In this document: positions 2,924 through 59,178 of the stretch, in pieces
How positions within the stretch are numbered: the first letter of the stretch is position 1
Layout: each line of letters starts with the position of its first letter
IMG/VR virus record: IMGVR_UViG_3300033121_001553
Span: 96,001 to 160,000 of that record
DNA: 64,000 bases
Reading direction: 5' to 3' (one strand)
Source of the DNA: a virus
Lineage: Duplodnaviria; Caudoviricetes
Position numbers and translations under genes: made by a program
The notes under the pieces: generated by a model
What the model was told of the DNA's origin: nothing
The model's database searches: none
Seen by the model: the letters and a program-made list of their open reading frames with translations, nothing else

Positions 2924-4813
2924 TAAGATGATGTTCATATTCAGAACCGTTACAGTTCCGAAGTAGTCAGAACGGATCATCTTCTTGCCGTACCGCGTCA
3001 TCACGCCCTTGGTTGGGGTGAAGTCCTGCGGATTGTAGATTGTCTGCGTCATGATGAGTGGCACATATGGCGCGTAGACATATCCCGTCTCAAGATAGTT
3101 ACCGCCCTTGTAGCCAACAAGGATGCGGTTCCTTGGGAAATAAGGATCCTTATAGACGGTAAATCTATTGTTCAGTGTACCGATTGCCTCTGCGCCCATC
3201 TGGAATGGAGAAGCTACCTGACCGTTGCCGTCAATCGACAGCTTGGCCTTGTACGCGATTGCGCTCTCGATAATCGTGCAAACATCTGGCGATGTCACGA
3301 TAAAGTTTGCGCTACCACGCAGGGTCTTACGGTGGATGGTGTTCGCAACGTCGTTGATTGTCTCAACAAGCGTCTGCGCCCACTCCATCGTGTTGCCCGT
3401 GAACTGTGGTCCGATCGACAAGCTCGTTGAGAGATCTCTCTGAGCACCGGTCAGCTTGTTCACGAACACGCCTGGAGCACGGCTCCAGTACAGGTTTGCA
3501 CCATTTGCCTGCGTTAGCAGATCCTGGAGGATCTCGCGGTCAATCTCAAGTGCGATCTGCTCCGACAGTACCTGCGTCAGCTCGACCTCTGCGTCGATGT
3601 TGTGGTACGCGTTCAGATCCTGCGCGAGCTCTGGAGACCAGCGAGCGCGCAGCTTGCGTGATGTTGCAGTGATTGCAATCGACTCAACCTTGATGTTGAC
3701 CTCTGCGATCACTGGGCTTGATGACGAGCCAAAGTCAGACTCGTAGCTTGGCAGCGTCAGAGTCGAACCTGTCGATGAATCGACCTGGAGCTTGTCGCTT
3801 ACGACACCAGACATCTTCATCGAGCCGCCGAGCACAGGTACTGAGCCTGCATTCGAGAGTCTCACGACGAACTGGATGTGGTCACCATTCAGCGCGTCTG
3901 GCGTAAACGTGGTGCCGTTGAAGTTACCACGCTTGTTCAGCTTGCGCAGGTTAAGCACACCAGTACCTGCCTGGAAGCTCTCGCCCCATGCCGTTGCACC
4001 GTTTGCCGTCGAGAACGCTGTGATTGCGAGCTGATCAACCTGGAGCAAGTCGACGTTTGCAATCGCGCTTGTGATCTGCGCAGTTGGAACGTGCACGAAG
4101 CACACGTCAAACGTACCAGCCTCGATACCAGCCTCAACGTCTGGATCGAAGTTGCAGAAGCGAGCGTTCGAGCCAGAGAAGTCAGTCGATGATGCGACTG
4201 TACCAGCTGATGTCCATGCGCCGTTCACTCCCGTGAATGCACCGACCTTCGTCTCAGCCGAAGCCGAAACAGAGTTGCTACCGCTGTGAACCTTCGAGAA
4301 GCCTGAGCCAACGAGGTCGTACATACCACCAGCCGCAAGCGAGCCCGACTGAACTCCCTTACCTGGCGGGTTGTTGTACAGCGACTGTCCAACGGTGTAA
4401 GTCTCATTTGCTGATGATGATGACAAGCTCACGCCTGCATCGCCACCAACGTTTGAGCCGTAGCCATAGTCGATGTAGAACACAAGACCAGATGGCAGCG
4501 ACATTGGCTGAACCGAAACGAGCTCGTTGGCAACGAGGCCACCGAAAACTCTACGTACGATTGGGAACGCAATGTTCGCGAAACCTGCGATCTGACCCGA
4601 CGTTGTAACGTTACCGCCACCTGTCGAGAGCGCGTTTGCCTCCTTTATGAGGCCTACTGCCTGGTTCTCAAGCAGACGGGCCATATGGCTACGGCGCTGT
4701 CCCTCGAGACCCTTGAGCAAGCCCGTCTTCGTCCACTTCTTGACGATGCGTGCTTCCTCTGCACTTCTATTGGGATCCTGGATCCCTTCCATAATATCCT
4801 GATATGTCAACAT
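2924..4813 (-). CDS. gp23: Major capsid protein (T4 gp23-like), 629 aa, TTA stop
   Basis: PIVRRVFGGLVANELVSVQPMSLPSGLVFY, RKLRARWSPELAQDLNAYH, EIDREI, YAPYVPL, GVMTRYG; own ATG 4813; ends ...NMNII-TTA. Confidence 0.93.
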
Positions 4814-54447: not shown

Positions 54448-55055
54448 GCCCATATAACGAATCTTACTACACTCAAAAAAACTACATTAGCTATCTTGAA
54501 CGACGAGAACGTTACACAAGAATGATAAATGAGCTCAACGATAGACTAATAAAGCCACTTGCGCTCGATAAGTTCTTGAAGCATGGTACGATCGTCGACT
54601 ATGGCTGCGGCGTTGGATTTTCAACAAAAGCTCTTATTGAAATCGGTTACAAGGCTATTGGCTACGATCCTTCTGTGTGGGCTGTGGAATGGGGTAAAAA
54701 AAATCTTGGTCTCAAGGGTACAGAGATAACAGATAAAAAAAATGAGATTCCTGGTCATTGTTCACTTATGCTTTCATTCGACGTATTTGAGCACATGTCC
54801 AGCGACGAAATAGCTGATACATTGGCGTACTTTTCGCCGATATACTTGCTTGTTCGCATACCTCTTGCAAATACCGACAACGGAGATTATGTTCTGAGTG
54901 TATCAGAAAATGATCCAACGCATATTATGCGTCTAACGCGTAGCTCGTGGAATCTTCTGCTACGTGAATGTAGATACGAATGGCTCTACGACGTAAATCT
55001 TACAATGTTTTACGATAGCGACGGTGTAATGTGTTCAATGTACAGAAAATATTTA
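54444..55055 (+). CDS. Class I SAM methyltransferase, TTA stop
   Basis: VDYGCGVG, GYDPS, FDVFEHM. Confidence 0.8.
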
Positions 55056-55075
55056 AAGTGATGCAAGAGGTAAAA

Positions 55076-56149
55076 ATGTCGAACGTCAAACCATCTATTG
55101 CTGTTATTGGTCAAGGCTTTGTCGGAGGTTCTCTTGCGACTGTTTTCGCTGAACGTGGATTCGATGTCTACGTTTACGATATCGCAGGAAAGTCAGCACC
55201 TGGCGCAGTAGAAAAAAAGTTCAATTCTGTACATGAGCTTGTAACAGCTTGTATCGCTACACCAGGTTTTAGCGGCGTTTATTTTCTTTGCGTTCCGACT
55301 CCAATGAATGTAGATGGCAGTGCAGATCTCAGCATTGTACAGTCAGCGCTTTACGAAGTTGTAGCATCGAATAAGCATCGTGCAGACGTCTGTAAGACTG
55401 TTGTTATCAAGTCAACGATACCGCCCGGAACAACAGAAACATTTAATCGTGATCTTGAAGTCACAAATACAAAAGTAGTCTTTAGCCCAGAATTTCTGAC
55501 AGAAGCTAACGCGCTTGACGATATGAGAGAACAGTCAAGAATTATTCTTGGTGGACCGCGACCGTATATCAATACTGTAAAACAAGTATTTTTGAAGGCT
55601 TTTCCAACACGTCCAATTATTAAAACAAATAGCACAACTGCTGAAATGGTAAAATATTTCACCAATATACAGCTCGCCGCAAGAGTTGTATTGAGTTGTG
55701 AACTTGCTGAGATTTGTGAGTTGCTCGATAAGCGCGGATACAACATCGACTACGATAAGGTTCTAGAGTATGCGAAGTACGATGAGAGACTAGGTAATAG
55801 TCATATGAATGTCCCAGGAAATGATGGAATTCCTGGTGCACGTGGCCACTGCGTAATTGCTGGTACAGTTGTTAAAATGCGTAATGACGTAAACGGTAAA
55901 AATGTAGAAAATTTGAAAGCACTAGATGAAATTGATAGCTGCGATGCGTTGCTTACGCAGAATGAATCGAAATATGTAAAATCAGCATCAATGCGAAAAT
56001 ACAATGGTATGGTTTATACATTTGTCGTTGGCGATAAACGTGTAACATGCACACCAGAGCATATACTGCCAGTATATAGAGACGGTAAGATCGTTCTATC
56101 ACGCGCCGAAGACATTACAACATCTGATGAACTATTTGTTGCAGAATGA
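55076..56149 (+). CDS. ugd: UDP-glucose 6-dehydrogenase N-part + N-terminal split intein
   Basis: IGQGFVG, CVPTP, IKSTIPPGT, FSPEFL, AEMVKY; then GH|CVIAGTVV (block A) and TCTPEHIL (block B); GAGG SD. Confidence 0.9.
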   Translation: MSNVKPSIAVIGQGFVGGSLATVFAERGFDVYVYDIAGKSAPGAVEKKFNSVHELVTACIATPGFSGVYFLCVPTPMNVDGSADLSIVQSALYEVVASNKHRADVCKTVVIKSTIPPGTTETFNRDLEVTNTKVVFSPEFLTEANALDDMREQSRIILGGPRPYINTVKQVFLKAFPTRPIIKTNSTTAEMVKYFTNIQLAARVVLSCELAEICELLDKRGYNIDYDKVLEYAKYDERLGNSHMNVPGNDGIPGARGHCVIAGTVVKMRNDVNGKNVENLKALDEIDSCDALLTQNESKYVKSASMRKYNGMVYTFVVGDKRVTCTPEHILPVYRDGKIVLSRAEDITTSDELFVAE

Positions 56150-56980
56150 AAAATTCACAAGTCGAAATTACATGTAAATTCTGTAATACTATTTTCTCTG
56201 TTGAATACAAACATAGAAAAAAAGTATTTTGCAATCGCAAATGCATGAATCTTTATTACAGAGGTGAAAATTCAACCTCGTTTGGTAAAACGTATAGAAC
56301 AAAAGAAACACATCCAGAATGGGCAAAAAAGGTATCAGATACGCATAAGCTGCGTAGAACATTGGTCGATAACAATCCAATGAAAAATCCTGATATTGCA
56401 AAAAAAGCAAGCGAAACAAGAAAAAAACTTTTGCAAGATCCTGCAAAACGTAAAATCATTGCAGATGCAATGAGAAAAGCGTGGGCAGACGGTAAATTTG
56501 CAAATGTTAATGTTGGAAAATGTAAATGGTTTTCATTCACAAAACGCAACGGTGAAATATGTAAAGTTCAGGGCAAGTGGGAATTGGCTTATGCAAAATG
56601 GCTTGACGAAAATCATATCAACTTCAAAACGCATATTGGAAGATTTCAATATGCGTTTGATGATGGTACGATAAGAAATTACTACCCTGATTTTTATCTT
56701 GTTGATGATGATCGTTACGTTGAAATTAAAAATGCATATCATCATAGCATCAATAAAAATAAAATTGATGCTGTTCGTTCGATGAATCCTAACGTTAGGA
56801 TTGATCTATTGTTTAAAGATGACTTGGTAGAGCTAGGTGTATTCAATGATAACAAAGAAAAAAATTGAAAAAATTTTGATAGAAAATTATGTTGGTGATG
56901 TTTACAACATAGAAGTTGTATCAAATGATGACGCAAATGATGATCTGTACTGGATTTGCAACGGTATCGTTGTGCATAAC
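55850..56980 (+). mobile_element. Split intein (IntN 55850-56146, IntC 56846-56980) with intervening free-standing endonuclease
   Basis: C1 at 55850; VYNIEV...NGIVVHN|C at 56980/56981. Confidence 0.88.
56146..56868 (+). CDS. Free-standing homing-type endonuclease (Zn finger + NUMOD-like + PD-(D/E)xK)
   Basis: CKFC..FCNRKC, NPMKNP, QGKWE, YYPDFYL...YVEIK. Confidence 0.8.
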   Translation: MKNSQVEITCKFCNTIFSVEYKHRKKVFCNRKCMNLYYRGENSTSFGKTYRTKETHPEWAKKVSDTHKLRRTLVDNNPMKNPDIAKKASETRKKLLQDPAKRKIIADAMRKAWADGKFANVNVGKCKWFSFTKRNGEICKVQGKWELAYAKWLDENHINFKTHIGRFQYAFDDGTIRNYYPDFYLVDDDRYVEIKNAYHHSINKNKIDAVRSMNPNVRIDLLFKDDLVELGVFNDNKEKN

Positions 56981-57139
56981 TGCTTTCCCAAAGACCTTAA
57001 TGCGCTTATCGCAAAAGCAAAAGAAGTTGGCCATAGCGCAAAATTGCTAAGTGCAATAAATGAACGTAATCTTGAAATTGTAAAACCTGAGCATCGTGAC
57101 TGGGAACGTATGCTTGGTAGAGCAGTCACAAAAAAATAA
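56846..57139 (+). CDS. ugd: C-terminal split intein + UGDH C-extein
   Basis: AGGTG SD; MITKKKIEKI...VYNIEV...VVHN|CFPKDLNAL (UGDH catalytic Cys motif). Confidence 0.9.
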   Translation: MITKKKIEKILIENYVGDVYNIEVVSNDDANDDLYWICNGIVVHNCFPKDLNALIAKAKEVGHSAKLLSAINERNLEIVKPEHRDWERMLGRAVTKK

Positions 57140-57508
57140 CTTATCTATCTCGTTCATAAATGATTTCGCAATTTGTTGAGGGGAAAGTTCGAATAGTTCT
57201 ACTTCATCAAATTGCGAAATGTATCTCATAAGATCGTTTACGTTGAATGACTTACCTGACTTACTAAGGTAATTTCTTACTTGAACGAATTTATTTCTTT
57301 TTGGATCATTTCCGCGAAGATTGATTTCTTCTTCATCTGCTTCTATATTTGCAGCGCTGTGAGCCCAACCGATTGGTTTTCTACCGTAACTTGGTGGCAG
57401 CATTGTTGCTTTTGATGGTGGAACAGTTGGGTCATCTGATGCTTCCATATAAAGCTGGACGTATTCTTTGATAAGCCTTCTGATTTTTGCTTTGTCATTT
57501 GTAAACAT
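57137..57508 (-). CDS. Hypothetical protein, TTA stop shared with the opposing TAA
   Basis: GAGG SD; IRRLIKEYVQ N-terminus resembles the head-module proteins. Confidence 0.65.
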
Positions 57509-57620
57509 TTTAGCTACCTCTTATATTTATGGTCATGCATTAGGTTCATTCAAGAGGCCCTCCAAATTTTTGCGCCGTAAAGTTGTGTATAACTTGTTGT
57601 TGTGAATTTTGGAGGATAAG

Positions 57621-57932
57621 ATGAAAAAGTATGAATATTTGTATGCGTATGCTAGAAATTTGATTAGAGCAGAACTACGTGGTATTGAATTGACTGCAAA
57701 GTCAATAAAACGACGTAAAGCAAAAAAAGATTTGTTGCTCTCATGCCGTGCTAGGAATTTGATTCTTGCTCGAGCATTTTTGCTTGGTAAGAATTATTTG
57801 CAAGCAGAACGTAAAGCAAAAATCTCTCCAGTCCCTGAGGAAATATCAAAAACGATTAGAAGCTATTTCCCGAATGCTGTAATGTGTCCAACAAGCGAAG
57901 AGATACGGCAATGGATGAAAAGCTGTATATTA
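57621..57932 (+). CDS. Small basic phage protein, TTA stop
   Basis: GGAGG SD; ARNLILARAFLLGKNYLQAE; TTA removes 135 nt of overlap with the Pth gene. Confidence 0.65.
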
Positions 57933-58225
57933 TCGTTCGTAAGGATCTGCCATACGGCGCGCAGTTTGCTCAAGCGATACACGCTGTTGCAGAATTTGCA
58001 ATTGAGCATAACGATCTTTATCGCGAATGGCATTCGACAACAAATACAGTTGTTGTGCTTAGCGTAAAAGATGAAACAGAATTGTTGAAAATTCAACAGC
58101 TTTCTATTGAAAATGGAATCGCGCATTCTCTTTTTAGAGAACCAGACTACTCTGGTTCTGCGACTTCAATTGCGTTGAAATCAAAGAAAATAAAATTTCT
58201 AAACAGACTCAAGCTCGCAAATTTA
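57911..58225 (+). CDS. Peptidyl-tRNA hydrolase 2-like protein, TTA-TGA stop
   Basis: KLYIIVRKDL..GAQFAQAIHA...VVVL...FREPD...TSIAL. Confidence 0.75.
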
Positions 58226-58236
58226 TGAGTCTGATA

Positions 58237-58307
58237 GCGTCATTTGCGTAGTGGCAACGCAGTTGATTCTAAATCGACTTACGCGGGTTCGATTCCCGCA
58301 TGACGCA
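58237..58307 (+). tRNA. tRNA with CUA anticodon (amber suppressor)
   Basis: Acceptor GCGTCAT/ATGACGC, D stem GCGT/ACGC with AGTGG, anticodon stem GTTGA/TCGAC with loop TT-CTA-AA, T arm GCGGG-TTCGATT-CCCGC, discriminator A, no encoded CCA. Confidence 0.9.
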
Positions 58308-58309
58308 CG

Positions 58310-58768
58310 ATGAACTACATCGAACTAATTGTTGGCGATCCATTTAAACGTGGTCATGCGATGAAGTCAACTGTTCGTGTTGAATGCACGCAAGATGCAT
58401 TCGCTGTCTCGTCTGCATATAAAGAAGGATGCGCAGTAGTGGGATTCGATATAACAGAAGAATACAGTTCAGATGACTCGAACGAAGTTATATCTGAAGA
58501 GCGCGTTGAAATACTCAAGTCGATAGATTTTGCTGGCGTTATCTTTCACGATAAAGATGGATTGTATCGACTGTCACCACGCAGTTACGCAGAAATTTAT
58601 ATGTTTATCGCTAACATCGGAGACAGTAGCATAAAGTACAAAGTTCTGAATGATCCTGACTACAAACTTGAAATTGGCGGTTACGGAATTTTTAACAAAG
58701 TAGCACGTCAAGAAAATGTAGAAGTTGAATTCAAAGATCCAGAACGATCGAAAAAACGTAACAAATGA
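58310..58768 (+). CDS. Hypothetical protein
   Basis: 152-aa ORF; LIVGDPFKRGH...IGGYGIF. Confidence 0.65.
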   Translation: MNYIELIVGDPFKRGHAMKSTVRVECTQDAFAVSSAYKEGCAVVGFDITEEYSSDDSNEVISEERVEILKSIDFAGVIFHDKDGLYRLSPRSYAEIYMFIANIGDSSIKYKVLNDPDYKLEIGGYGIFNKVARQENVEVEFKDPERSKKRNK

Positions 58769-58923
58769 TGAATGTTCATGTTCACTGCAACGACTGCGGT
58801 CGTGCTGTTGAACAACGCGATACGTGGCGTTGTTTGTGGTGTTATCGTACGATCTGCGCGTATTGCTATATTTTTCACAGTACAGAAATGCATGGTGACA
58901 AATACATAAAACGCGATAAATTA
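58765..58923 (+). CDS. Small Cys-rich Zn-finger protein, TTA stop
   Basis: CNDC..CLWC..CAYC..H; in-frame TTA at 58921. Confidence 0.5.
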
Positions 58924-58929
58924 ATATGC

Positions 58930-59178
58930 GTGAATTGGACCGTTAGCGACAATTACGCAAAAGCAGCTGTTGCTGCGTGTAAAGCTACTCCTGATGCTGT
59001 TGAATCGATACTACGAGAAAAACACGGCGGTTGGAGTAGACTGATAGCGAAGATGCAAAAAGAGAATCAAGAGCTAACATGCGTTGCTAGCTGTTGGATG
59101 GCCATTCGCGATGTTATAGAAGAAATCAAACGAATAAAGGCGATGAATGCAACAACAGACAACGGAAAAAAAACTTAG
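58930..59178 (+). CDS. Hypothetical protein; only TAG-ending gene seen
   Basis: In-frame GTG after the TTA; second half of the track ORF 58765-59178. Confidence 0.4.
   Translation: MNWTVSDNYAKAAVAACKATPDAVESILREKHGGWSRLIAKMQKENQELTCVASCWMAIRDVIEEIKRIKAMNATTDNGKKT

What the first reader, a model, noticed from the sequence alone, without database searches (positions are those of the whole stretch)
58237..58307. Amber-suppressor tRNA(CUA) plus near-absence of TAG stops
A clean 71-nt cloverleaf has anticodon CTA at 58269-58271, G1:C72, A73 and a short variable loop. It is not Pyl-like (canonical GG and TTC) and lacks the U1:A72/G73 typical of bacterial Gln. Once TTA is a stop, only one gene in the window ends in TAG. 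I saw no gene interrupted by TAG here, so UAG looks vacated or ambiguous rather than commonly used as sense. Inference: a double recoding in which UAG leaves the stop set and UUA joins it.
Basis: partly seen in the sequence, partly recalled or inferred. Interest (0 to 1): 0.8.

Follow-up and report, generated by a model that had tools for sequence, protein, structure and literature searches.

The report
Phage amber-suppressor tRNA operon
A large uncultured phage that ends a third of its genes with TTA also carries a genuine UAG-reading tRNA, which sits in a small operon with a peptidyl-tRNA hydrolase gene. That operon's own short leader holds the only in-frame UAG found, so the tRNA most likely overrides UAG and switches on its own operon rather than making UAG an ordinary sense codon.

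Summary
Window 58237-58307 is a canonical tRNA with anticodon CUA (ARAGORN; Rfam 62 bits). It is identical in three independent assemblies except for one pair-preserving change.

My first dismissal of "TTA stop" as TAA on the minus strand was wrong. In-frame TTA is almost absent and sits at gene ends.

With TTA counted as a stop, TAG ends 1 of 64 ORFs in the window and 6 of 204 in the 187-kb contig. Relatives use TAG for 16-24% of stops. No ORF of 40 aa or more has an internal TAG, so this is not a code-15 phage.

The tRNA is the last part of an operon:
- a promoter-like site;
- a 31-codon leader (M-V-M-H-UAG-V-H-S-R-G-P-P...);
- a 103-aa basic protein;
- a PTH2-like peptidyl-tRNA hydrolase;
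- the tRNA(CUA).

The Pro-Pro codons of the leader's RGPP arrest-type motif pair perfectly (8 bp) with the next gene's Shine-Dalgarno site.

PTH2 followed by tRNA(CUA) recurs in mycobacteriophages Yucca and Myrna and in a MAG contig. Earlier notes of this scan describe similar amber-gated cassettes on other DNA.

The tRNA body is most like tRNA-Lys.

"UAG has left the stop set" is not shown: no release factor evidence was found, the host is unknown, and the contig is about 52% complete.

The parts
57499..57527 (+). sigma-70-like promoter match (TTGTAA, 17 nt, TATATT) directly before the leader
   Evidence: Consensus scan. The number of sites found in the region (9) is not above the shuffle mean (6.9), so this is weak.
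57529..57624 (+). Leader ORF M-V-M-H-UAG-V-H-S-R-G-P-P-N-F... (31 codons). TAG lies at 57541-57543 and the RGPP codons at 57553-57564. Its TGA (57622-57624) overlaps the ATG at 57621 of the next gene.
   Evidence: Sequence; scans. R[AG]PP occurs only twice in the six-frame translation of the whole 186.8-kb contig. Strains L012-L014 keep the ATG and TAG but read RDPP. RDPP is reported as a partially permissive RAPP-like arrest motif (PMC12992588).
57559..57615 (+). RNA stem in which CCUCCAAA (57559-57566, the Pro-Pro codons) pairs with UUUGGAGG (57608-57615, the Shine-Dalgarno site of the next gene)
   Evidence: Present in both the MFE and the centroid fold. Whole-region z-score is only -0.46. 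The 8-nt complement appears in 33 of 200,000 shuffles, and only 2 of 210 genes have a comparable pairing. Both arms are invariant in four assemblies.
57621..57932 (+). Gene for a 103-aa basic protein of unknown function, ended by TTA (57930-57932); it overlaps the PTH2 start
   Evidence: ORF reading. No Pfam or PHROG family. No similarity to the roughly 100-aa genes upstream of PTH2 in Yucca or L059.
57911..58228 (+). PTH2-like peptidyl-tRNA hydrolase gene (104 aa), ended by TTA at 58223-58225 and then TGA; it has no early in-frame TAG
   Evidence: Pfam PF01981, E 8.8e-12, 45.7 bits against a cut-off of 23. phrog_1866, E 1e-19. 40% identity to the Yucca hydrolase, E 4e-20. N-terminus compared.
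58237..58308 (+). tRNA with anticodon CUA (58269-58271), A73 at 58307, no encoded CCA; it starts 11 nt after the PTH2 TTA stop
   Evidence: conserved in L012-L014.
58310..58768 (+). 152-aa ORF of unknown function whose ATG lies 1 nt after the tRNA call; no Shine-Dalgarno sequence is visible. Whether it belongs to the operon is not established.
   Evidence: No family or look-alike found.
58930..59178 (+). The only ORF in the window that ends in TAG (82 aa, unknown function)

Best explanation
This is a functional phage amber-suppressor tRNA and the last element of a small self-sensing operon: leader, basic protein, PTH2-like hydrolase, tRNA(CUA).

Shown:
- a canonical tRNA with a CUA anticodon;
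- its gene order and spacing within the operon;
- a UAG at codon 5 of the leader, followed by an RGPP (RDPP in sister strains) arrest-type motif;
- perfect pairing of the Pro-Pro codons with the next gene's Shine-Dalgarno site;
- near-absence of TAG at phage gene ends and none inside genes.

Inferred:
- The transcript is cut by RNase P and 3' nucleases, and the host adds CCA.
- A host synthetase charges the tRNA. LysRS is the best guess (Lys-like body, A73, U35); GlnRS is the alternative.
- The A36-A37-A38 loop would make it a MiaA substrate.
- The charged tRNA competes with RF1 at UAG.
- While suppression is weak, ribosomes stop at leader codon 5, the stem hides the Shine-Dalgarno site, and little basic protein or PTH2 is made.
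- When UAG is read through, the ribosome reaches R(G/D)PP, stalls on the 5' arm of the stem, frees the Shine-Dalgarno site, and the two proteins are made. The hydrolase would recycle peptidyl-tRNAs produced by read-through.

The rest of the genome has shed TAG stops, so the phage's own proteins are largely immune to its suppressor. UAG is therefore a nearly vacated, leaky stop used as a one-codon switch, not a general sense codon.
For: - tRNA quality and conservation.
- Standard reading of TAG. Coding density is 0.945 under code 11 and 0.950 with TAG as sense. No internal TAG in ORFs of 40 aa or more.
- TAG depletion. 6/204 in this contig, 14/86 in G001-G003 and 29/119 in G004. Six orthologues that end in TAG in relatives end in TGA, TTA or TAA here. 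TAG and TGA have the same base composition, yet TGA is used about 16 times more often.
- PTH2 family.
- Recurrence of PTH2 followed by tRNA(cta). Yucca 250 nt apart, Myrna 130 nt, and MAG contig L059 600 nt. Lak-B5 has a tRNA(tta) 580 nt upstream of its homologue.
- Early in-frame TAG in the PTH2 genes of Yucca, Myrna and LR756511.
- Leader, motif rarity, stem and strain comparison.
- RGPP gives the strongest arrest and RDPP is partially permissive (PMC12992588).
- Lys-like body. 50/69 identity to E. coli tRNA-Lys against 42/69 or less for 20 other isoacceptors. The closest phage tRNA is a Lys(UUU).
Against: - Nothing is experimental. Expression, charging, the amino acid inserted and ribosome arrest are all untested.
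- The fold of the leader region is no more stable than shuffles (z -0.46).
- The leader differs at 5-6 of 96 nt between strains that are 99.4% identical overall, so most of the peptide is not constrained.
- The R[AG]PP motif lies 19 codons before the leader's stop. Published arrest peptides carry it near the C-terminus.
- No R[AG]PP leader was found in the flanks I fetched for Yucca, Myrna, LR756511, L059 or Lak-B5.
- PTH2 here lacks the early TAG seen in those phages.
- Four PTH2-bearing phages have no suppressor tRNA within 4-6 kb: LR756511, CM1, XacN1 ORF364 and D479.
- The isotype method named only 3 of 8 of the phage's own tRNAs correctly.
- The contig is about 52% complete.
Confidence: 0.55

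Rival explanations
1. A plain accessory suppressor. The tRNA(CUA) and PTH2 are ordinary accessory translation genes of a large phage, as in XacN1, with no dedicated target. The leader ORF, its TAG and the stem are coincidences. TAG depletion simply reflects tolerance of a leaky suppressor or drift.
For: - XacN1 has two CUA tRNAs and 18 amber stops, and its authors found no targets (PMC5852040).
- The leader fold z-score is not significant.
- The leader peptide varies between strains.
- No matching leader was found in five other loci.
- About 8 other ORFs have an early upstream TAG by chance.
Against: - R[AG]PP occurs only twice in six frames of 187 kb, and one occurrence sits 3 codons after a TAG in the 100 nt before this operon.
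- The 8-nt anti-SD match has p about 2e-4 and is seen in only 2 of 210 genes.
- The leader's stop overlaps the next start codon.
- The strain variant RDPP is also an arrest-type motif.
- Early TAGs recur in PTH2 genes of three other phages.
Confidence: 0.2
2. True double recoding. In infected cells termination is carried out by an RF2-type factor that reads UAA, UGA and UUA, as proposed for organelles with a Ser204-substituted RF2. RF1 is absent or disabled, UAG has no release factor, and the tRNA(CUA) with PTH2 keeps ribosomes from stalling at the few remaining UAGs.
For: - All frequently used stops have the form U-N-A: TGA 94, TTA 66 and TAA 38 of 204.
- TAG, the only RF1-specific stop, is 16-24% of stops in relatives but about 3% here.
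- UUA = stop in labyrinthulean mitochondria and peDinoflagellate plastids is linked to RF2 Ser204 substitutions (PMC12574857).
- One residual TAG stop belongs to a mobile HNH endonuclease gene and is followed directly by TTA.
Against: - No RF-1 or PCRF domain gene in the contig.
- The host and its RF1 are unknown.
- TCA is a normal sense codon.
- The same cassette sits in standard-code phages.
- TAG still ends a complete UvdE gene.
- Back-up stops after TAG are no commoner than after other stops.
Confidence: 0.12
3. UAG is a sense codon, as in code 15, in genes on the missing half of the genome, and the tRNA serves them.
For: - CheckV puts completeness at 52%.
- Recoded phages often carry CUA tRNAs (bioRxiv 10.1101/2021.08.26.457843).
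Against: About 200 genes, including portal, terminase, other structural genes and replication genes, show no internal TAG. In recoded phages the late genes are the ones that carry in-frame stops.
Confidence: 0.05
4. The tRNA does not decode. It is a decayed tRNA-Lys copy, a decoy for a host anticodon nuclease, or only an RNA-processing signal that releases the downstream mRNA.
For: - Lys-like body.
- The next ORF starts 1 nt after the tRNA without a Shine-Dalgarno sequence.
Against: - All cloverleaf and tertiary positions are intact, with a high Rfam score.
- The one strain difference preserves a base pair.
- The CUA anticodon is fixed in four assemblies.
- CUA tRNAs recur next to PTH2 in unrelated phages.
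Confidence: 0.05

Closest known systems
Orphan amber-suppressor tRNAs of standard-code large phages (Xanthomonas phage XacN1, PMC5852040; Bixzunavirus and Myrnavirus mycobacteriophages)
   Same: A CUA-anticodon tRNA in a phage whose genes are not interrupted by TAG. TAG stops are rare (18 of 592 genes in XacN1). In Yucca and Myrna a homologous PTH2-like gene lies just upstream of the tRNA.
   Different: Here the tRNA is isolated from the main tRNA cluster, which lies 25 kb away. The PTH2 gene has no early TAG; the gate sits in a separate leader. The phage also uses TTA as a stop.
Stop-codon-recoded phages with suppressor tRNAs (code 15, TAG = Gln; Borges et al., bioRxiv 10.1101/2021.08.26.457843)
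   Same: A phage-encoded CUA tRNA. Loss of the stop codon from gene ends is proposed there as a precursor state to recoding.
   Different: No in-frame TAG in about 200 genes, and coding density is already 0.95-0.97 with TAG as a stop. The tRNA is not Gln-like: G1:C72, A73, and 48% identity to E. coli tRNA-Gln.
RAPP/RGPP ribosome-arrest leader peptides (ApdA, ApdP, ApcA; SecM-secA) (PMC7897499, PMC10951233, PMC12992588)
   Same: A small upstream ORF with an R-G-P-P motif, a downstream gene in the same direction, and a Shine-Dalgarno site paired with leader codons, so that a stalled ribosome would expose it.
   Different: Entry to the arrest site would be gated by a UAG codon and the operon's own suppressor tRNA rather than by protein export. 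The motif is 19 codons from the leader's end, and the nascent chain at the arrest point is only about 11 residues. Arrest is untested.
prfB (RF2) autoregulation through an in-frame UGA (from my own knowledge)
   Same: An early in-frame stop codon in a translation-factor operon reports how efficiently that stop codon is being read.
   Different: Here the logic would be read-through by a tRNA followed by arrest, not a +1 frameshift. The regulated products are a hydrolase and a basic protein.
UUA = stop codes of organelles, with RF2 Ser204 substitutions (PMC12574857)
   Same: The genome around this tRNA uses UUA as a stop.
   Different: That concerns the neighbouring finding. No altered release factor is visible here, and those organelles are not reported to carry amber suppressors.

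Membership tests
Canonical elongator tRNA (Rfam RF00005) | Full-length cloverleaf scoring above the family gathering score | tested here: met
   62.2 bits against 29, model positions 1-71 of 71; ARAGORN cloverleaf.
Canonical elongator tRNA (Rfam RF00005) | Conserved tertiary positions: U8, A14, G18G19, G15:C48, U33, G53:C61, T54-Psi55-C56, A58 | tested here: met
   Read directly from the sequence.
tRNA-Pyl | Atypical core: short D-loop without G18G19, no T-Psi-C consensus, 3-nt variable loop, with pylS/pylBCD in the genome | tested here: not met
   G18G19 and TTCGATT are present. The pyl genes were not searched. ARAGORN's 'Pyl' is only its label for the anticodon.
Gln-type amber suppressor (supE-like; code-15 phages) | Weak 1:72 pair (U1:A72), G73, G2:C71, and TAG aligned with Gln in conserved genes | tested here: not met
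   G1:C72, C2:G71, A73. 33/69 identity to E. coli tRNA-Gln. No in-frame TAG in conserved genes. Mischarging by GlnRS through U35 cannot be excluded.
Lys-derived amber suppressor (CUU to CUA) | tRNA-Lys-like body with A73 and U35 | tested here: inconclusive
   Closest of 21 E. coli type-I tRNAs is Lys(UUU), 50/69 against 42/69 or less. The closest phage tRNA is a Lys(UUU). The control recovered only 3 of 8 known isotypes.
Stop-codon-recoded phage (TAG as sense) | Low coding density under code 11, restored by reading TAG as sense, with many genes holding in-frame TAG | tested here: not met
   Density 0.945 against 0.950. No internal TAG in ORFs of 40 aa or more.
PTH2-tRNA(CUA) cassette of large phages | PTH2-like gene and CUA tRNA close together on the same strand | tested here: met
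   11-nt gap here. Same order in Yucca, Myrna and L059.
PTH2-tRNA(CUA) cassette of large phages | Early in-frame TAG within the PTH2 gene itself | tested here: not met
   The gene starts M-D-E-K-L-Y-I-I. The nearest in-frame TAG is 18 codons upstream with no start codon before it. Yucca, Myrna and LR756511 do have the early TAG.
PTH2-tRNA(CUA) cassette of large phages | Early in-frame TAG in a short leader ORF of the operon | tested here: met
   TAG is codon 5 of 57529-57624. That other phages have such leaders rests on unchecked notes of this scan.
RAPP-like arrest-peptide regulator | R-[AG]-P-P (or a permissive variant) in a small upstream ORF | tested here: met
   RGPP here and RDPP in three sister assemblies. 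RDPP is partially permissive.
RAPP-like arrest-peptide regulator | Ribosome arrest at the motif that exposes the downstream Shine-Dalgarno site | not testable with these tools
   Only the 8-bp anti-SD:SD stem is shown. Arrest needs toeprinting or profiling.

The most novel reading that the evidence does not exclude
The phage, with its host, has rewired the stop set. UUA joins it through an RF2-type reader, and UAG leaves it because RF1 is absent or inactivated. The tRNA(CUA)/PTH2 operon is then the sensor and effector that keeps UAG readable, and it measures suppression through its own UAG-plus-RGPP leader. This would be a virus running a stop-codon set of UAA, UGA and UUA with UAG as a regulatory sense codon.
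Probability: 0.12. Interest if true: 0.92.

Novelty: new variant of a known kind. Interest (0 to 1): 0.66.

Why it matters
Suppressor tRNAs in standard-code jumbo phages have been puzzling orphans; the XacN1 authors, for example, found no target. Here the tRNA has a concrete, testable target a few hundred bases away. That target is a UAG followed by the strongest known ribosome-arrest motif, and the motif's codons mask the next gene's ribosome-binding site.

If this works as proposed, it is a natural one-codon translational switch that senses suppression. It would also explain why a peptidyl-tRNA hydrolase gene travels with these tRNAs.

The operon sits in a phage that also ends genes with TTA and has nearly purged TAG. 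The locus is therefore a good place to test experimentally how stop-codon sets change in viruses.

Tried and rejected
1. I first read "TTA stop" as TAA on the minus strand. Codon counts and C-terminal alignments with relatives refuted this.
2. Code 15, or any TAG-as-sense code: rejected.
3. Read-through fusions at TAG (AAA ATPase to UvdE; gp32-like to RecA-like): rejected. The partners are complete separate domains, and the upstream genes end at a TTA a few codons before the TAG.
4. Back-up stops after TAG: 3 of 5 lie within 3 codons, but 36-40% of all other stops do too, so there is no signal.
5. Searches for relatives of the locus found nothing:
 - megablast, blastn and tblastn against phages;
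 - PTH2 and the downstream ORF in viral contigs;
 - exact tRNA patterns in viral contigs and genome contigs.
6. The only distant PTH2 relative from the protein search (L015) has no tRNA nearby.
7. Release factor domains and the GlnRS/GluRS, LysRS/AspRS and TrpRS/TyrRS families: none in the contig. One 18-bit PCRF hit inside the portal gene is below the cut-off.
8. blastn of the tRNA against E. coli genomes was uninformative because of database size, so I fetched 21 K-12 tRNAs instead.
9. The roughly 100-aa proteins upstream of PTH2 in the window, Yucca and L059 share no similarity.
10. The ESM Atlas gave nothing for the downstream ORF.
12. Walking off the contig end with the look-up of encoding contigs failed.
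13. My count of "NTGA overlaps" only tested the base before TGA. It is not used.

Full report
**The tRNA is real**

- ARAGORN finds a single tRNA in the 64-kb window, 58237-58308 on the + strand, with anticodon cta.
- Rfam's tRNA model matches 58237-58307 full length at 62.2 bits (gathering score 29, E 1.7e-12).
- The sequence shows G1:C72, C2:G71, G3:C70, A73, U8, A14, G18G19, a G15:C48 pair, a 4-nt variable loop, T-loop TTCGATT and anticodon loop UUCUAAA. No CCA is encoded.
- It is therefore a canonical elongator-type tRNA that would read UAG. The "Pyl" label is only ARAGORN's name for the anticodon.
- Three independent Logan assemblies from different runs (L012-L014), 99.3-99.4% identical over 6.3 kb (L012, L013) and 98.6% over 1.5 kb (L014), carry the same gene with CTA. 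The only difference, U29 to C29, turns a U.G pair into C-G. A sequencing error is excluded.

**Genome and code**

- The window is bases 96001-160000 of one 186,819-bp IMG/VR virus record, linear, with CheckV completeness about 52%. It encodes portal, large terminase, PhoH, a late sigma factor, RecA/UvsX-like and gp32-like proteins.
- It has 12 tRNAs. Eleven cluster at 179.9-186.0 kb, and the CUA tRNA stands alone 25 kb away.
The lead came from earlier notes of this scan, and I tested it myself:
  - In code-11 ORFs, in-frame TTA is 110 of 59,356 codons, against 1465 and 679 in the other frames. The other Leu codons number 525-1531 each. The in-frame TTAs sit mostly in the last few codons.
  - Thirteen genes ending in TTA align end-to-end with relatives' genes that end in TGA, TAA or TAG.

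**Status of TAG**

- With TTA as a stop, the contig has 204 ORFs of 60 aa or more: TGA 94, TTA 66, TAA 38, TAG 6.
- The window has 64 ORFs: TGA 30, TTA 23, TAA 10 and one TAG, at 58930-59178.
- Relatives with about 50% TerL identity (G001-G003) use TAG in 14 of 86 stops, and G004 in 29 of 119. Fisher p is 1e-4 and 5e-9.
- Six orthologues that end in TAG in relatives end in TGA (4), TTA or TAA here.
- TAG and TGA have the same base composition, so composition does not explain the loss.
- Reading TAG as sense barely changes coding density (0.945 to 0.950). No ORF of 40 aa or more has a TAG away from its extreme ends.
- Two cases where a TAG-ended ORF is in frame with the next gene are separate complete proteins.
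- The residual TAG-ended genes include a complete UvdE and an HNH endonuclease whose TAG is followed by TTA.
- Back-up stops after TAG are not enriched.
- So UAG is nearly vacated as a stop and is not a general sense codon.

**A conserved neighbour**

- The gene ending 11 nt before the tRNA (57911-58225, TTA stop, then TGA) is a PTH2-family peptidyl-tRNA hydrolase: PF01981, E 9e-12; phrog_1866, E 1e-19.
- Its homologues occur in 241 phage records.
- A CUA tRNA lies close to the homologue on the same strand in several of them:
  - Mycobacterium phage Yucca: homologue 40% identical (E 4e-20), tRNA(cta) 250 nt downstream.
  - Myrna: tRNA(cta) 130 nt downstream.
  - The single hit of a profile scan of bacterial and archaeal genome contigs (L059, a MAG contig): a CUA tRNA 600 nt downstream.
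  - Lak-B5: a tRNA(tta) 580 nt upstream.
- LR756511, CM1, XacN1 ORF364 and D479 have no suppressor tRNA within 4-6 kb.
- The PTH2 genes of Yucca, Myrna and LR756511 begin ATG-TAG-GTG, GTG-TAG-GTG and M-T-H-TAG-V. This matches the "amber-gated Pth2" cassettes described in unchecked notes of this scan on other genomes.
- In this window the PTH2 gene has no such TAG.

**The local UAG target**

- A short ORF lies 382 nt upstream of PTH2, after a promoter-like site: M-V-M-H-UAG-V-H-S-R-G-P-P-N-F..., at 57529-57624.
- Its TGA overlaps the ATG of a 103-aa basic-protein gene (57621-57932, TTA stop), which in turn overlaps the PTH2 start.
- R[AG]PP occurs only twice in the six-frame translation of the whole contig.
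- RGPP is reported as the most robust RAPP-like arrest motif. RDPP, the variant in the three sister assemblies, is partially permissive (PMC12992588).
- The Pro-Pro codons, CCUCCAAA, pair perfectly with UUUGGAGG, the Shine-Dalgarno site of the basic-protein gene, in both the MFE and the centroid folds.
- That complement appears in 33 of 200,000 shuffles, and only 2 of 210 genes show anything comparable. Both arms are invariant across strains.
- Weak points:
  - The region's fold energy is not unusual (z -0.46).
  - The rest of the leader varies between strains.
  - I found no such leader in the other loci I fetched.

**Which amino acid**

- No GlnRS/GluRS, LysRS/AspRS or TrpRS/TyrRS family gene and no release-factor domain is encoded in the contig. 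A host synthetase must charge the tRNA.
- The short variable arm excludes bacterial Leu, Ser and Tyr types.
- With the anticodon masked, the closest of 21 E. coli K-12 tRNAs is Lys(UUU), 50/69. The next is His at 42/69; Gln scores 33/69 and Trp 30/69.
- The closest phage tRNA in my set is a Lys(UUU).
- A73 and U35 fit LysRS recognition, and A36-A37-A38 fits MiaA (both from established knowledge).
- The method named only 3 of 8 of the phage's own tRNAs correctly, so Lys is a lead and not a result.

**Reading**

- Most likely (about 0.55): the tRNA is a working amber suppressor in a self-sensing operon. Read-through of the leader UAG lets ribosomes reach R(G/D)PP, stall on the stem's 5' arm and open the ribosome-binding site for the basic protein and the hydrolase. 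The phage has purged TAG stops and so tolerates its own suppressor.
- Rivals:
  - a plain orphan suppressor as in XacN1 (PMC5852040), about 0.2;
  - true double recoding with an RF2-type reader of UAA, UGA and UUA and no RF1, in line with organellar UUA = stop and RF2 Ser204 changes (PMC12574857), about 0.12;
  - TAG as sense in the missing half of the genome, about 0.05;
  - a non-decoding role, about 0.05.
- Loss of a stop codon before its reuse is the path proposed for recoded phages (bioRxiv 10.1101/2021.08.26.457843).

**Novelty and caveats**

- Phage amber suppressors, arrest leaders and stop-codon sensors are each known. I did not find their combination in the papers I searched. This scan has noted similar cassettes before on other DNA.
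- Everything here is computational, the host is unknown, and half of the genome is missing.

Noticed in passing
window 55031-57139 (+): The UDP-glucose dehydrogenase gene is fractured. ORF 55031-56149 covers the NAD-binding domain and positions 2-64 of the central domain, followed by an intein-splicing-like end (PF14890, E 4e-4). ORF 56146-56868 is a free-standing endonuclease-like gene. ORF 56837-57139 reads ...NGIVVHN|C and resumes the central domain at position 62. This looks like a split intein with an intervening homing endonuclease gene.
   Followed up: partly
whole contig; e.g. window 57930-57932, 58223-58225: TTA behaves as a fourth stop. It is almost absent in frame, ends about 32% of ORFs, and aligns with ordinary stops of relatives. 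TCA is a normal sense codon, and the contig has no tRNA-Leu and no release factor gene. Relatives G001-G003 do not end genes with TTA.
   Followed up: partly
window 58765-59178 (+): One continuous 137-codon frame holds an in-frame TTA at codon 53 (58921-58923) and ends in TAG. It is either a 52-aa Cys-rich ORF followed by an 82-aa ORF, or a recently acquired standard-code gene that would be truncated in this phage.
   Followed up: no
window 58308-58312: The ATG of the 152-aa downstream ORF lies 1 nt after the tRNA call, there is no Shine-Dalgarno sequence, and an in-frame TGA sits inside the tRNA. 3' processing of the tRNA could leave a nearly leaderless mRNA.
   Followed up: no
L039 (Prevotella phage Lak-B5, MK250024.1) 3347-3419 and 4001-4294: A tRNA with anticodon UUA (ochre type) is the only tRNA within 4 kb of the Lak-B5 homologue of the PTH2-like gene, 580 nt upstream on the same strand.
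   Followed up: no
genome 54664-55224 (-), outside the window (L058 665-1225): An HNH homing endonuclease gene is one of the few genes ending in TAG, and its TAG is followed directly by TTA. This fits recent acquisition from a standard-code source.
   Followed up: no
L059 130-200 (MAG contig CAZNER010000073.1): Upstream of the 99-aa ORF that precedes the PTH2-like gene, CCTCCTA lies about 50 nt before TAGGAGG, the Shine-Dalgarno site. This is a possible anti-SD pairing like the one in the window. No leader ORF was worked out.
   Followed up: no
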